57,498 bases of DNA, from assembly GCA_034780895.1 (NCBI GenBank), contig JAUZTB010000107.1, forward strand, positions 22,932,357 to 22,989,854, given 5' to 3'. The position numbers were made by a program. This document shows, piece after piece, positions 21,122 to 27,100 of this stretch. Origin of the DNA: Rhynchobatus australiae. Its lineage: Eukaryota. Position 1 is the first letter of the stretch; every line of letters starts with the position of its first letter.

Positions 21122-24100
21122 TCATGAAAATAAACAAAAATGACTGCAGATGCTGCAAATCTGAAGTGAAACCAGGAAATGCTGGGGGTTAAAAACTCAG
21201 CGGGTCGGGCAGCATCTGTGGAAGGAGACACTGTCAACGTTTCGGGTCCGGGGACCCTTCGTCGTCACAACGGTTCGTTTCAGTCGCTTCGAGACCAGGG
21301 AAGTGTCCTGACTGCTCAAACCCTGGCGCCCGTGGAGTTGCCAGTTTCCCAGCCCTCCACCCTCTTCCCCCTCCCTCAGAACTAAACCTGTTGACGTCCC
21401 CGGACCTACAGACTCGGTTCACTGATTCAGCCACTCGCCCTTCTCCCCTGCCAAACTCTGGGGACGTTTCCCAATTCTAAAGGCTAAATACTCCACCCCC
21501 ATCTCATTCAGACTCTTAATCCTGCGGGCTCAACCCACAGAGAGGAATCCATACCCACCTCGAAGCCCCACAATCACCTTTCAGCCTGTCCCCCTCCACA
21601 AGGGGAGGACTCACAATAACATCCCACGACCTGCACTCCCTCTTCTCCCCCATCCCCAGCCAGCAGTGGCTGCTAGTCCAACAGACACCGCCACTCCGCC
21701 TCCAGGCCCTTGTTTAGCGGCCCATTAAAAAATTCTAGCCACACATCCTTTCAGAACAATTCAAAATCTCTGGATGCAAAGGTGCGCACCATCATTGCGA
21801 CCAGTTTCGCAGCTGTACAAACACCTGGCTGACTTAAAGTCTGCTCAATATTTCGGGGTGGAAAGAAATACAAAATGGAAGCAAAATCAAATACAGAAAC
21901 AGCATTCAACTAGAAATGGCGAAAATAAGGCCATATTTTTACAGCCAATTAATGTTGGTCTTCCTGGCTAAGAAGGCATTTTTGCTTACCTTACCATGAC
22001 TCTCACATCCCAGTCCTACTGGTCACACGTGGGTGACATACCCAGAATCCTCAAAAAAAAAGTGCAAGTAAAACTTCAGAGTGCTGAATGCCAAAAGAGT
22101 CATATTGTCACATGTTTCATATGTGACCTACACGGGTGACTCTGTTTAAGCATTAGATAGAAGCATTAGAGAGATATTAATAGATTAACCAAATAGATGA
22201 AATCACTGGAAGATAAATTTCAATCAAGGCAAATGTGAGGTCATGAACTAAAATAAAAGAGCATTTTCTAAAAGGAATAAAATTTGAAGCAATGGATAAC
22301 CAAAAAGNNNNNNNNNNNNNNNNNNNNNNNNNNNNNNNNNNNNNNNNNNNNNNNNNNNNNNNNNNNNNNNNNNNNNNNNNNNNNNNNNNNNNNNNNNNNN
22401 NNNNNNNNNNNNNNNNNNNNNNNNNNNNNNNNNNNNNNNNNNNNNNNNNNNNNNNNNNNNNNNNNNNNNNNNNNNNNNNNNNNNNNNNNNNNNNNNNNNN
22501 NNNNNNNNNNNNNNNNNNNNNNNNNNNNNNNNNNNNNNNNNNNNNNNNNNNNNNNNNNNNNNNNNNNAGCAGAAATAACATAAGCTATTCCTTGCGTTTG
22601 AGAAGGTTAAAGGGTGATTTCATCAGAGATATTAAGGGGAACTGATAGTGTAGATAGATCAAATGATTTCTGCTGACTAGGGAGTCTAGGCCTAGGGGGC
22701 AAAATATAAAAATTAGAGCCAGGCCTTTTAAGAGTGAAATTAGGAAACACTTCTGCATGCAAAAGAGGTAGAAGTTTGGAACTCTCTTCAGCAAAGAGCA
22801 ATTGATGCTAAGTCGTTTGTCAATGGCCTGGATCTTCCTATTAAAATACAACAGTTACACATGGGGTGGATGTTTGGGGTGTTTGAGCAAAGGTGAAAGC
22901 TTAGATCATCTGGTCGACTCATCTCCGATCCCAGGCCAGGTGTTGAATTCCCACAAGTCTAGCACAGGAGCACAAGCTTCCAAATTTCTTCCAGCATTTG
23001 GACAAGGAATTTCCTTTTTCATTATTTAATTCAGTTAATTGCAATGTCTTTTTTATGCTTCTGAGTTTCTTGATGCATAAATAGTTTTATAATTTTAATT
23101 TTTAGATTATGAACAGTTGTGAATGTCAAAGCCAGTAAGCCTGAGGGCAGGGCTTAACTGGCTCTCAAAGCAATTCTGGAGGTGGAGCCTGTTATTTTTT
23201 GATCAAGAATGCCCTGCACTGCTCTGGGACTTACTAATCTGCTGGGAGACAGCTTCCAACAGAAAACTGTGCCTGATGACAGGTTAAAGCAGGTTTTGAA
23301 AATTATGAATTATCATCTCGGCAAAGTTGCAACTTGTTGGTCAGGAAAACATTCAAGCCAGCTTGTAAGTCTCTAATTTGGTAGATTGTTCTAACCAAAT
23401 ATATTAAGACATAGGGGAAAATAGTGAGTCAAAAGACTAAAGTCTAGATCATTGCTGACAAAACAAGATCATAAACCTCCTGTTCCTTTTGTCCCACGTT
23501 CCTAAATTGCAACACCAAACTCTGGTCGAATGCCTAATTTCTAATTCACACTTCATCATAAACATAAACTGATTGAAATTTAAGTGTAGAGTTGTTTAAT
23601 AAGATAATACTGATTTTGTGGTTTTATAAATATTTTGATTCATGTCATTATAAGTAATTGTGGCATGAGTCCTGCTCCTGAGGAAAGTGATTTTTTTTAC
23701 TGGATAAAATAATTTTCAAATCTAAATAAAATCTGTGAAAATTCTTGGCTTTATCAGTCTAAAGCTAGGTGATCAATGCATCTCTTTCTATATATTCAGT
23801 CCATAAAAACATAAAAAATCAATAATTTCTACACAGGAACAGTAATTTAAGTGTGAGGATTGCCTAAATCCACTACATCAACAGCAGTTTCAAGTACAGA
23901 TAGTTTGGAGTCTGGACAGAATCAAAGACGTACACTCCCAAAGGTCTTGAAACCAGTCTCAAGACTGTTCACCCATTTTGGATCAATAACAATGCAAGGT
24001 TTCCGACATGTTTGTGAAATTATGTGAAGTTGCATACCTGAACTTGTGTTTAGATGCATGGAACTAGTTCTATGTTAATCTCATGGTTAACTTTAATTAT

Positions 24101-27100
24101 TTTACTACTTTGCTGTTAAATTCACTTCCTACAGGTTATAGGAAGAACAGTGAAAAAACACAAATACATATATCAGGGAAACCAATACAGAGATGTCATT
24201 AAAGTTTCATTTTTAAAGAGCTGATTAACCAATCTGTCAGTAGCAAATTCCTAAAGGAGCTGCAATGACATTTCATCCACAGATGCACAGATTTTTAAGA
24301 TCAATAAAATACCCATTAAACGATTGTTTTTGGACAGGCAGCAGGAAAAATTATGACTGCCAGCGGATTGAATAATTAATACTGTCTGCCTCTGTGTGAA
24401 GCAGGTTTGCTCCCACTGACCCAAATGGAATTTTCTCGGTCTTTCCTTGCTAACATAAAAAGTATTTGCTATGAAAGCAATAATAGTCAAGCAGTAAATT
24501 TAAAACAATTGCATCTCCACAATTATGAATCTTTATTATAAATACTTTGCAATGTAAATAAGATGTCATTGAGGAACAATCTGCATAACAAAGTTTTCTG
24601 GTACTATTTGCTGAGAAGAGTACTCTAATGTTGTTCTGGACAACATACTTCCCATTGGAGACACAGTCAAAAGGCAAACATTTCCTGATTATAGAACCTA
24701 GATAAGCACAAACTGGTTGTCATGTTTAGCATGTCTACATTTCTTTCAAGGGTAATTTAGGTGAGGGAAATGGTACAGTGCTGTANNNNNNNNNNNNNNN
24801 NNNNNNNNNNNNNNNNNNNNNNNNNNNNNNNNNNNNNNNNNNNNNNNNNNNNNNNNNNNNNNNNNNNNNNNNNNNNNNNNNNNNNAGGTGAGGGAAATGG
24901 TACAGTGCTGTATAAATAAAACTCCTTTCAAAAGTGAAAAGAAATACGAGTTAACACTTCAACAAACAACTCTCTATTAGGAATTAGGGCCAAAAATGTT
25001 TTAAATTAATTAAATTGAATCATTTCATGGCAACAAAATTAGTATTAGTCACCAGTTACTTTGGTTTGGGAGGTACTATAAACTATAATTCTTTTGGATG
25101 GATCATATAACAAAGATATACAATAGAGTATTAGAAGTGTCACTTGAGCTGCATTACATCAATAGAAGCAGTTCAATATAACATTAGAACCAAAGTTACA
25201 CAAATTAAGAAAATAGTTAATCTCCATTCTCAGTCTTGTGTACTTCTAGATAAGTTCTGTGTATGTACCAATATATCCGATATCCGCAATGAAGGAATTC
25301 ACTGGTATGCCCAGCAGCCAAATGTGTACATTTCACTCAAAATTTTGTCTACATTATGTGAATATGGTTTAAGGTATCATCCATTAGGAAATGGAAAATA
25401 ATTAACAATTAAATAGATTTATTTTATCCAGTATTTCCTTTGAAAAAGACAATATGCCAGAAAATAGCAAGAAATTCAATTAATGGGGGAGTGAAATTAA
25501 ACAGGAATTATCTTGCTTCACCATAACACTGGATGATGATCCATGAAAACATTAGAATAATATGGTTTTCCTCATGTTGCTGCAGTTCTTTGTCCAATTT
25601 ATTCATTACTTGTATGAACCAAAATATTTCTTCCATAGACTGACCAGGCTAAGTGTCAACTGTTCCAAATTACAAAGGAAAGAACAACAGGCAACTTAAT
25701 TCTTCATTCAGTATAGAAACGATAACCAGTGATCATGGCAAGCAACACTCCAGATTCAATGCTTATGTCACAGGGTTTGATAAGACAAGATTTTATCTCT
25801 GTTGGTATCAGTTTGATTGGCATTTGAAAAATCTGTGGGGTTACAGCTTCTGAGACTGTAAGAAATCACTTAAACCCAAACTGAGAAGTCTGACCAACCT
25901 CCTCCCTTCATCAATTCCTAAAAAAAAACTATACTTTAATATCCTCTTATTATCAATGTTTTAGAGTATAAATAAATTCAACACATAAAATTGGCAGTTC
26001 TATTTTATGTTTAAATTATATTCAACTCTTGCACCAGATGATTTAGCTAAAAGCAGAAGTGACCCCAGTAGTATAGCTTTNNNNNNNNNNNNNNNNNNNN
26101 NNNNNNNNNNNNNNNNNNNNNNNNNNNNNNNNNNNNNNNNNNNNNNNNNNNNNNNNNNNNNNNNNNNNNNNNNNNNNNNNGTAGTATAGCTTTGCAAATC
26201 ATTGGTTATGTCTGTAATTCTTCCCCTTACCTAATGCTTAAACGTGGTTCATTTCAAAATGATATATCATTCTCAAAATGGAAAGAGAAAATTACAGCAA
26301 AAATCAAACTTAGTGAGTGGTCCAACTGCAGAAGATGAACTGCAAGTATAGGGTTGCCCAACAGGTCCAAAGAAGACAAAGGGGTGCATTTTTAAGGAAA
26401 TATATTCTGTGGAGGAGTAAATGGCGTTTGGTCTGCTTATTACATTAAACAGTGGGAGTGGGATGTTACTGTGAGTCCTCCCCTTGTGGAGAGGGACAGG
26501 CTGGAAGGTGATTGTGGGCTTCTAGTTGGGTATGGGTTCTTCTCTGTGGGTTGAGCCCATAGAATTAAGAGTCTGAATGAGATGGGGGTGGAGTATTTAG
26601 CCTTTAGAATTGGGAAACGTCCCCAGAATTTGGGTGGGGAGAAGGGCAAGCAGTTGAATCAGTGAACCGAGTCTGTAGGTCCGGGGACGTCAACAGGTTC
26701 AGTTCGGAGGGCAGGGGGAAGAGGGTGGAGGGCTGGGAAACTGGCAACTCCACGGGCGCCAGGGTTTGAGCAGTCCGGGCACTTCCCTGGTCTCGAAGCG
26801 ACTGAAACGAACCGTTGTGACAAAGGGTCCCTGGACCCGAAACATTGACAGTATCTCCTTCCATGCATGCAGGGATAAAAATGCTAATGAAACTTTGTCC
26901 TCGATCTCTAGAATGCTGGAATACTGAAACAAGGAAATTATGCTCTAACTATCAGATGCTTTCATGAGCACTGATTTTAGTTTTATCCCCTGAGCCTCAT
27001 GGTACATTATGTCATATTTTGCAAGAGTGGGCAACTTGTCCATGCAACATTAATTGCAAGGGTTTGAGCACATTTAGACTTTTAAATCATTTGCCTGCAA

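What the first reader, a model, noticed from the sequence alone, without database searches (positions are those of the whole stretch)
21219..26863. ~405-bp inverted duplication in wnt5a intron 4, 160 nt from the last splice acceptor
Seen: 21219-21627 and 26458-26863 are reverse complements at roughly 92-93% identity (manual count), about 4.8 kb apart in one intron. Arm B starts in the middle of the short repeat at 21130-21263 and continues into its flank, so it looks like a local inverted copy rather than two independent insertions. Arm B also keeps most CpGs although its surroundings are CpG-poor. Inference: the pre-mRNA could fold into a ~400-bp duplex just upstream of the final 3' splice site. 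Long intronic duplexes are established ADAR substrates and splicing modulators, and the arms could also mediate inversion of the intervening segment.
[Added by the scan's program, not by the reader: the finding's places include an assembly gap (unread letters, written N; its length is only estimated) at 22308 to 22567, 24786 to 24885, 26081 to 26180. Whether the letters on both sides are continuous or in frame is not known: test that first.]
Basis: partly seen in the sequence, partly recalled or inferred. Interest (0 to 1): 0.65.

Follow-up and report, generated by a model that had tools for sequence, protein, structure and literature searches.

The report
Inverted repeat pair in Wnt5a intron
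Two roughly 415-base copies of one sequence lie in opposite orientation about 4.8 kb apart in the last intron of a Wnt5a-like gene; they are really there in the assembly, but they look like an ordinary and probably neutral DNA duplication, not a special regulatory device.

Summary
Window 21212-21627 and 26458-26870 are reverse complements: 385 of 412 aligned bases identical, 5 gap columns, BLAST E 1e-172. It is by far the strongest self-match in the window. The gene runs on the minus strand, so 21212-21627 is the arm next to the last splice acceptor, 153 nt upstream of it. Gap test: two of the three gaps between the arms (24786-24885, 26081-26180) have exact end-to-start overlaps of 27 and 13 nt, so the sequence is continuous there. 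The 260-N gap at 22308-22567 has none, so the inverted orientation rests on scaffolding. The distal arm starts inside a dispersed short repeat. Its other end falls inside a C-rich block that runs on at the proximal site. That fits a one-off local inverted partial copy (about 0.5) slightly better than two insertions of an uncharacterised mobile element (about 0.35). Genome-wide copy number could not be checked. The two arms could form a duplex of about 400 bp in the pre-mRNA (-820 kcal/mol) that leaves the branch site and acceptor free. Editing, a splicing effect and inversion are untested. This is an ordinary feature of low interest.

The parts
21212..21627 (-). Proximal arm, which is the downstream arm in the pre-mRNA. 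It is 416 nt, 56% G+C, and G-rich in the sense RNA. It ends 153 nt upstream of the last exon.
26458..26870 (-). Distal arm, which is the upstream arm in the pre-mRNA. It is 413 nt and is the reverse complement of the proximal arm. It lies inside contig 26181-28477, 277 nt from that contig's start.
21130..21265 (.). Short dispersed repeat (SR). Its exon-side two thirds (21130-21211) lie outside the arm and its last ~52 nt (21212-21263) lie inside it. Other copies in the window are at 39355-39441, 18477-18528 and 55385-55434. The extent beyond 21228 rests partly on my recall of this repeat in cartilaginous fishes.
21628..21709 (.). Continuation of the C-rich block beyond the end of homology at the proximal site (C = 0.52 and 0.46 in the two 50-nt windows). 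There is no counterpart at the distal site.
20603..21058 (-). Coding part of the last exon of the Wnt5a-like gene. The AG acceptor is at 21060-21059.
   Evidence: Pfam wnt, E 1.5e-63, profile 153-305; best solved relative Wnt-5a, E 1.5e-99
36754..37068 (-). Reading frame holding the preceding Wnt exon. The GT donor is at 36753-36752, so the last intron is 36753 to 21059: 15,695 positions as assembled, 1,179 of them N (my arithmetic).
   Evidence: (Pfam wnt, E 2.4e-31, profile 61-151)
22308..22567 (.). Assembly gap of 260 N with no end overlap (2 nt). The orientation of everything to its right relative to the last exon and the proximal arm rests on scaffolding alone.
24786..24885 (.). Assembly gap of 100 N. 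The last 27 nt on its left equal the first 27 nt on its right, so the two contigs are contiguous and in the same orientation.
26081..26180 (.). Assembly gap of 100 N. The last 13 nt on its left equal the first 13 nt on its right, so the two contigs are contiguous and in the same orientation.
21353..21375 (-). G-quadruplex-type motif inside the proximal arm, on the sense (RNA) strand. The matching motif of the distal arm (26709-26732) is on the + strand, so it is C-rich in the RNA.

Best explanation
This is a real pair of inverted copies about 415 bp long in the last intron of a Wnt5a-like gene. The distal arm (26458-26870) is most likely a one-off, local, inverted partial copy of a composite stretch next to the last exon. 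That stretch consists of the last ~52 nt of a dispersed short repeat plus 364 nt of the adjacent C-rich sequence. The copy was probably laid down by a DNA-level copying error, either a template switch during replication or templated insertion during break repair. It happened about 0.07 substitutions per site ago and has since drifted neutrally. If both arms are transcribed in one pre-mRNA as scaffolded, they can pair into an imperfect duplex of about 400 bp that loops out about 4.8 kb of intron. Such a duplex would be an ordinary substrate for ADAR hyper-editing. It leaves the branch site, polypyrimidine tract and acceptor free, so I expect little or no effect on splicing. Shown: the repeat, its borders, the gene context, the duplex energy and continuity across two of the three gaps. 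Inferred: the copying mechanism, neutrality, pairing in vivo and editing.
For: (1) The pair is the only copy of the 364-nt body in 57.5 kb, and the arms lie 4.8 kb apart. (2) One breakpoint cuts through an independent repeat family: 3 of 3 other SR copies in the window cross position 21212, and none of them carries the body. (3) The other breakpoint lies inside a compositionally uniform C-rich block that continues about 85 nt further at the proximal site only. Its C fraction there is 0.52 and 0.46, whereas only 7 of 261 50-nt intron windows reach 0.36, and that count includes this block. Both ends of the distal copy are therefore arbitrary with respect to the units at the source. (4) No mobile-element hallmarks were found. 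ARAGORN found 0 tRNA-like genes. Rfam gave no match in 20900-27300 apart from a chance-level snoRNA hit elsewhere. Pfam gave no family for 3 reading frames of the distal arm or 2 of the proximal arm. I saw no poly-A tail and no convincing target-site duplication when reading the junctions. (5) Neither arm is an assembly echo: identity is only 92.7%, and each arm is read through into unique flanks within its own contig. (6) Duplex potential: -820.5 kcal/mol with 396 intermolecular pairs, against -263.6 for the two arms folded separately and -289.3 +/- 9.3 for 20 shuffles. The pair easily passes the criterion used for intramolecular dsRNA in a 22-species editing survey, namely a reverse-complement alignment of at least 80% identity and at least 50 nt (PMC9989829, methods passages read). 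(7) Template switching is a described source of inverted repeats and RNA hairpins (PMC5453318, PMC8794818, PMC7954356; search listing and abstract starts only).
Against: Genome-wide copy number was not testable, and it is the one decisive discriminator. Each arm is a G+C- and CpG-rich island in an A+T-rich intron, which is also what young mobile-element insertions look like. The distal copy ends ...CATCCCAC followed by a second TCCCAC. This could be read as a variable 3' microsatellite of a 5'-truncated non-LTR retroposon. Chondrichthyan SINEs are modular and share tail modules with LINEs (PMC5499810, abstract and section 6), so a short-repeat-like module inside a longer element is possible. 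No microhomology typical of template switching is evident at the junctions. Described short template switches are far shorter than 400 nt (recalled). The inverted orientation depends on the unbridged 260-N gap. The only support for it is a weak strand-composition argument: A>T on the + strand in all 12 contigs from 15438 to 49181, including the three distal ones at +0.023, +0.072 and +0.091.
Confidence: 0.5

Rival explanations
1. The arms are two independent insertions, in opposite orientation, of one uncharacterised dispersed element (SINE-like or a composite non-LTR retroposon) that carries a short-repeat-like module at one end. The distal copy is truncated. Any duplex is the usual by-product of neighbouring inverted repeats.
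For: Both arms are sharply bounded G+C-rich, CpG-rich blocks (56% and 55% G+C, CpG observed/expected 0.60 and 0.46) inside intron of 32-41% G+C. The divergence of about 7% would fit two copies each about 3.5% from a consensus. In the + orientation the distal copy would be 5'-truncated by about 80 nt and would end in a doubled TCCCAC, which fits reverse-transcription-primed insertion. Chondrichthyan SINE families are modular and share LINE tails (PMC5499810, abstract and section 6). In general, most pairs of this kind in vertebrate introns are mobile elements (my own knowledge).
Against: There is no third copy of the body in 57.5 kb. No tRNA-like head, no Rfam family and no protein domain were found, nor poly-A or a clear target-site duplication. 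The three other short-repeat copies lack the body, so the short repeat also exists on its own. The C-rich composition runs past the supposed terminus at the proximal site.
Confidence: 0.35
2. This is a scaffolding problem. Both copies exist, but the contig block carrying the distal arm (22568-28477) is misoriented or belongs elsewhere. In that case the arms are not inverted within one intron and no hairpin forms.
For: The window is a fragmented draft with 22 gaps. The 260-N gap at 22308-22567 and the 604-N gap at 28478-29081 have no end overlap (2 and 0 nt). The block between them contains no Wnt exon, so nothing in the sequence itself ties it to this intron.
Against: Within the block, the two 100-N gaps are bridged by exact 27-nt and 13-nt overlaps; 0 of 50,000 random pairs exceeded 8 nt. 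The block shows the same sign of A/T strand skew as the exon-bearing contigs, which is weak evidence. An identity of 92.7% rules out a haplotype duplicate.
Confidence: 0.12
3. The duplex is a selected regulatory structure. Pairing of the arms would control use of the last 3' splice site, nuclear retention or editing of the Wnt5a pre-mRNA.
For: The near arm is close to the final acceptor (153 nt). The duplex is very stable. One 112-nt sub-segment (21264-21375) is better conserved between the arms: 3 of 113 columns differ against 29 of 304 elsewhere (Fisher p 0.02, chosen post hoc), and 6 of its 7 CpG sites are kept.
Against: No splice signal lies in the duplex, and the acceptor-proximal RNA folds no better than shuffles (z -0.89). 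No exon lies in the loop. Of the 27 mismatches, 16 are true mismatches in the sense RNA and 11 give G-U, so there is no sign of pairing being preserved. Two copies that descend from one sequence are complementary by descent, so complementarity itself carries no evidence of selection. No cross-species data were available.
Confidence: 0.03

Closest known systems
Neighbouring inverted repeat copies in introns and UTRs (for example inverted Alu pairs) that form long dsRNA and are hyper-edited by ADAR
   Same: Two copies of about 400 nt of one sequence lie in opposite orientation within a few kb in one transcription unit. Identity is well above the 80% over 50 nt used to call intramolecular dsRNA (PMC9989829, passages). 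The copies are young and little diverged, the class reported there as the main editing target.
   Different: Membership of a dispersed repeat family is not shown here, because only two copies were seen. No RNA data exist, so editing is untested. The species is not a mammal and the element is not an Alu.
Inverted repeats and hairpins created by template switching during replication (PMC5453318, PMC8794818, PMC7954356; search listing and abstract starts only), and larger replication-based rearrangements such as FoSTeS/MMBIR (recalled)
   Same: A nearby stretch is copied in reverse-complement orientation. The breakpoints ignore the borders of the sequence units at the source. The result is a potential RNA hairpin.
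   Different: The copy is about 415 nt long and lies 4.8 kb away, much longer and farther than the short events described in those papers (recalled). No junction microhomology was seen, and there is no outgroup to show the event.
Modular chondrichthyan SINEs that share a LINE-derived tail (CmiSINE, SacSINE1; PMC5499810, abstract and section 6)
   Same: The arrangement is composite: a body joined to a module that also occurs elsewhere in the genome. The size is a few hundred nt.
   Different: No tRNA-like head or A/B boxes were detected. The shared module is truncated in one copy on the side that a retroposon must keep if the module were its 3' tail.

Membership tests
Intronic inverted-repeat dsRNA (ADAR hyper-editing substrate class) | Reverse-complement match of at least 80% identity and at least 50 nt to nearby sequence | tested here: met
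   92.7% over 410 columns, 4830 nt apart. Cofold gives -820.5 kcal/mol with 396 intermolecular pairs. The criterion is taken from PMC9989829.
Intronic inverted-repeat dsRNA (ADAR hyper-editing substrate class) | Both arms lie in one transcript | tested here: inconclusive
   Both arms lie between the Wnt exons at 36754-37068 and 20603-21058 as scaffolded. Two of the three intervening gaps are bridged by exact overlaps and the 260-N gap is not. A/T skew agrees only weakly.
Intronic inverted-repeat dsRNA (ADAR hyper-editing substrate class) | Clusters of A-to-G differences between RNA and DNA in both arms | not testable with these tools
   No RNA-seq data were available.
Dispersed mobile element pair (SINE or non-LTR retroposon) | Many dispersed copies in the genome | not testable with these tools
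   Only the window could be searched, and it holds 2 copies of the body in 57.5 kb.
Dispersed mobile element pair (SINE or non-LTR retroposon) | Head derived from a tRNA, 5S or 7SL RNA with a polymerase III promoter | tested here: not met
   ARAGORN found 0 genes in 20900-27300. Rfam found no such family at E up to 1.
Dispersed mobile element pair (SINE or non-LTR retroposon) | 3' tail (poly-A or short tandem repeat) and target-site duplication | tested here: inconclusive
   There is no poly-A. TCCCAC occurs twice at the distal end and once at the proximal end. At most 4 nt (GGGA) are shared by the distal flanks (read).
Dispersed mobile element pair (SINE or non-LTR retroposon) | Protein-coding remnant of a transposase or reverse transcriptase | tested here: not met
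   Pfam found no family for 5 arm reading frames.
Local inverted segmental copy (template switch or templated insertion) | Breakpoints cut across the borders of pre-existing units at the source | tested here: met
   3 of 3 other short-repeat copies cross the 21212 breakpoint. The C-rich block continues about 85 nt past 21627.
Local inverted segmental copy (template switch or templated insertion) | Only two copies exist, close together | tested here: inconclusive
   This holds within the window. It could not be tested genome-wide.
Local inverted segmental copy (template switch or templated insertion) | Empty target site in relatives, and junction microhomology | not testable with these tools
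   No related genomes were available. No clear microhomology is seen at the junctions.
Assembly artefact (false duplication) | Near-identical copies that sit at contig ends | tested here: not met
   Identity is 92.7% with indels. The arms lie 680 nt and 277 nt inside their contigs, with unique flanks on both sides.

The most novel reading that the evidence does not exclude
A lineage-specific templated inverted insertion created a 400-bp intronic duplex next to the last acceptor of Wnt5a. That duplex has been co-opted: its formation, in competition with a G-quadruplex motif in the downstream arm, together with ADAR editing, would tune removal of the 15.7-kb last intron or nuclear retention of the pre-mRNA of a key developmental signal.
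Probability: 0.04. Interest if true: 0.45.

Novelty: new member of a known kind. Interest (0 to 1): 0.15.

Why it matters
It matters little as it stands. Neighbouring inverted copies in introns are common across animals and are the standard source of edited dsRNA. The useful outputs are practical. The report gives a checked anatomy of the pair on the correct gene strand. It shows that two of the three gaps are really unmerged contig overlaps, while the third leaves the orientation open. It also gives a clear test, genome copy number plus one long read, that would settle both origin and topology. If only two copies exist, the pair would be a clean and unusually long example of a local inverted templated copy in a cartilaginous-fish-like genome.

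Tried and rejected
(1) I suspected a remnant of the short repeat just outside the distal arm (about 26905-26945), which would have pointed to recombination between repeats. A profile built from the 4 window copies found nothing there at E up to 50, so I dropped the idea. (2) Homology continuing beyond the arms: the exon-side flank scores 15 against a null mean of 9.8, with 3 of 300 shuffles at least as high. The reversed-orientation control is nearly as good (11 of 300). The far side shows nothing (165 of 300). I treat this as low-complexity noise. (3) CpG asymmetry as a sign of protection of the near arm: 4 against 0 polarised changes and 18 against 13 CpGs is not significant. (4) An Rfam scan found only sn2903 at 24409-24492, with 20.8 bits against a threshold of 50 and E 0.39, which is chance level. 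The tRNA scan found nothing. Pfam found no family for the arm reading frames or for the frame just after the 260-N gap. (5) A literature search for a 13-nt motif of the short repeat found 0 papers. A search for wnt5a, inverted repeat, intron and shark found 214 papers holding at least 3 of the 4 terms, and none of the 8 listed contains wnt5a. I therefore found no description of this feature, but I did not search further. (6) Special local RNA structure at the acceptor: z = -0.89, and 38 of 200 shuffles fold at least as well. (7) Inversion by homologous recombination: the longest perfect runs are 64 and 63 nt, so I judge it unlikely from general knowledge; this was not tested. (8) The bacterial and archaeal genome collection and the phage, plasmid and E. 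coli collections were not searched with this vertebrate intron, because they cannot answer the copy-number question.

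
Full report
OBSERVATION. 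The repeat finder returns four collinear inverted pairs that together cover 21212-21627 and 26458-26870 (202 nt at 91%, 112 nt at 97%, 61 nt at 95%, 52 nt at 87%), with 4830 nt between the inner ends. BLASTN gives 92.7% identity over 410 columns and E 1.15e-172. A global alignment gives 385 matches, 27 mismatches (20 transitions, 7 transversions) and 5 gap columns, for a Kimura distance of 0.069. In a self-comparison of the whole 57,498-base window only 5 non-self matches reach E 1e-6. This pair scores 596 bits and the next best 147. Homology stops sharply at both ends, and the flanks of both arms are unique in the window.

GENE CONTEXT. The gene is on the minus strand. I searched three reading frames separately, exon by exon, and did not join them into a spliced protein. 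All three match Pfam wnt: 40282-40785 (profile 2-92, E 3.4e-16), 36754-37068 (profile 61-151, E 2.4e-31) and 20603-21058 (profile 153-305, E 1.5e-63). The last exon's best solved relative is Wnt-5a (E 1.5e-99, 333 bits, against 169 bits for Wnt-3a). No Wnt-5b structure is in that list, so 5a against 5b is not settled. The donor GT is at 36753-36752 and the acceptor AG at 21060-21059. The last intron therefore covers 15,695 positions as assembled, 1,179 of them N (my arithmetic). In the pre-mRNA the arm at 26870-26458 comes first, and the arm at 21627-21212 comes second. I did not try to name the species.

GAPS. This was the test asked for first. I compared the window's own letters on the two sides of every gap. 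At 24786-24885 the last 27 nt on the left equal the first 27 nt on the right. At 26081-26180 the same holds for 13 nt. In 50,000 random pairs of window positions the longest such overlap was 8 nt. Four of the 6 gaps written as exactly 100 N show overlaps of 9-27 nt, and none of the 16 other gaps exceeds 2 nt. The 100-N gaps therefore look like unmerged overlapping contig ends. It follows that contigs 22568-24785, 24886-26080 and 26181-28477 are contiguous and in the same orientation. The 260-N gap at 22308-22567 (overlap 2 nt) and the 604-N gap at 28478-29081 (overlap 0) are not bridged. The placement and orientation of the 5.9-kb block that holds the distal arm, relative to the last exon and the proximal arm, therefore rest on scaffolding. 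One weak argument supports the given orientation. A exceeds T on the + strand in all 12 contigs from 15438 to 49181, including the three in the block (+0.023, +0.072, +0.091). That is what transcription-linked strand asymmetry would produce (general knowledge, recalled). Each arm lies inside its own contig, 680 and 277 nt from the nearest gap, and the arms differ by 7%. They are therefore not a haplotype echo. I filled no gap, and the true spacing between the arms is uncertain by the gap sizes.

ANATOMY. The proximal arm begins inside a short dispersed repeat (SR, about 21130-21265). Three other SR copies lie in the window (39355-39441, 18477-18528, 55385-55434). All three cross the breakpoint at 21212 by about 15-20 nt, and none is followed by the 364-nt body. 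I recall this repeat as very common in cartilaginous-fish genomes and as extending to about 21265. That is memory, not a test, and a literature search for a 13-nt motif from it found 0 papers. At the other end the homology stops at 21627. The unusual C-rich composition nevertheless continues for about 85 nt at the proximal site (C = 0.52 and 0.46 in the next two 50-nt windows). Only 7 of 261 intron windows reach 0.36, and that count includes this block. The distal flank is ordinary. Both arms are G+C-rich (56% and 55%) and keep CpGs (18 and 13, with 11 shared; observed/expected 0.60 and 0.46), whereas the flanking intron has 32-41% G+C and CpG observed/expected of 0.13-0.35. CpG retention is thus a property of the unit, as expected for copies only 7% apart. 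The polarised changes number 4 against 0, which is not significant. One sub-segment, 21264-21375, is better conserved than the rest: 3 of 113 columns differ against 29 of 304 elsewhere (p 0.02, chosen post hoc). A gene-conversion patch or chance could explain this. At the distal junction the copy ends in TCCCAC and is followed by a second TCCCAC, which I cannot explain.

WHAT IT IS. No mobile-element hallmark was found. There is no tRNA-like head, no Rfam family (the one hit, sn2903 at 24409-24492 with E 0.39, is chance level), and no Pfam family in 5 arm reading frames. I also saw no poly-A tail and no convincing target-site duplication. Both ends of the distal copy cut across units that are whole at the proximal site, and there are only two copies, close together. 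I therefore lean towards a one-off local inverted partial copy, made by a template switch or by templated repair (confidence about 0.5). Template switching is a described source of inverted repeats and hairpins (PMC5453318, PMC8794818, PMC7954356; listing and abstract starts only). Those events are much shorter (recalled), and I see no junction microhomology here. The main rival is a pair of insertions of an uncharacterised modular element (about 0.35). It is favoured by the island-like composition, by the doubled TCCCAC, which could be a retroposon 3' repeat on a 5'-truncated copy, and by the fact that chondrichthyan SINEs are modular and share LINE tails (PMC5499810, abstract and section 6). 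The decisive datum is genome-wide copy number, and it could not be obtained.

HOW IT WOULD WORK. If both arms lie in one pre-mRNA, a two-strand fold predicts 396 intermolecular pairs at -820.5 kcal/mol. The two arms folded alone give -263.6 kcal/mol, and 20 shuffles give -289.3 +/- 9.3. Of the 27 mismatches, 11 become G-U pairs and 16 remain mismatches in the sense RNA. The pair passes by a wide margin the criterion used to call intramolecular dsRNA in a 22-species survey. That survey found young repeats with a nearby inverted copy to be the main ADAR targets across animals (PMC9989829, passages read; it includes no shark). Editing is therefore plausible but untested. The candidate branch site (TTTTAAC, about 25 nt upstream), the pyrimidine tract and the AG all lie in the 153-nt spacer outside the duplex. 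That spacer region folds no better than shuffles (z -0.89). No Wnt exon lies in the loop. I therefore expect no exon skipping or back-splicing and at most a small effect on splicing. The longest perfect runs are 64, 63, 45 and 42 nt, which I judge too short for efficient inversion by homologous recombination (general knowledge). The arms are complementary because they descend from one sequence, so the complementarity itself is no evidence of selection.

VERDICT. This is a real inverted repeat of ordinary kind. Its origin is probably a local inverted copy, but a mobile-element pair is not excluded, and its topology depends on one unbridged gap. It is a new member of a known kind, with interest 0.15. 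A search for wnt5a, inverted repeat, intron and shark found 214 papers holding at least 3 of the 4 terms, and none of the 8 listed mentions wnt5a. I found no prior description and did not search further.

Noticed in passing
window 24786-24885, 26081-26180, 43551-43650, 52919-53018: Four of the six gaps written as exactly 100 N have exact suffix-equals-prefix overlaps between their flanks (27, 13, 9 and 18 nt). None of the 16 other gaps exceeds 2 nt, and 50,000 random pairs never exceeded 8 nt. These gaps look like unmerged overlapping contig ends rather than missing sequence.
   Followed up: yes
window 39305-39446: Two copies of the short dispersed repeat face each other as a near-palindrome around the 3-N gap at 39343-39345. 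The arms 39313-39340 and 39382-39409 are 89% complementary, and the repeat profile hits both strands. The palindrome may be why the assembler broke there. It lies in the intron between the Wnt exons at 40282-40785 and 36754-37068.
   Followed up: partly
window 21353-21375 (-), 26709-26732 (+), 27463-27493 (-), 32953-32967 (+), 49692-49724 (-), 52760-52780 (-): There are six G-quadruplex-type motifs in the window. Two of them are the same position of the two arms. The one in the proximal arm is on the sense RNA strand and could compete with duplex formation.
   Followed up: no
window 21264-21375 versus 26710-26821: This sub-segment of the arms is more alike than the rest (97.3% against about 90%, p 0.02, chosen post hoc), and 6 of its 7 CpG sites are kept in both arms. 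It could be a gene-conversion patch or chance.
   Followed up: partly
window 26446-26463: At the distal junction the hexamer at the end of the copy occurs twice in tandem (TCCCAC TCCCAC on the minus strand). The proximal site has it once. This is unexplained; it could be a retroposon 3' repeat, slippage or coincidence.
   Followed up: partly
window 30225-30510 versus 10050-10330; 40216-40290 versus 38862-38936; 32030-32076 versus 30325-30371: These are the only other within-window repeats at E 1e-6 (71%, 83% and 91% identity), and all are direct. They are presumably old dispersed repeats. The window is otherwise poor in young repeats.
   Followed up: no
window 15438-49181: A exceeds T on the + strand in all 12 contigs across the transcribed region. 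The contigs below 15338, beyond the gene's 3' end, show about zero or negative values and a strong C-over-G skew. This is consistent with transcription-linked strand asymmetry.
   Followed up: partly
window 27300-27500: There is a G+C-rich patch (51-54%) with a long G-run motif inside the distal contig, about 450 nt beyond the distal arm. Its nature is unknown.
   Followed up: no
window 22568-22645 (+): The reading frame that starts right after the 260-N gap reminded me of the C-terminal end of a non-LTR retrotransposon protein common in sharks (recalled). Pfam found no family, so the lead is unsupported. A repeat at this spot could explain the gap.
   Followed up: partly
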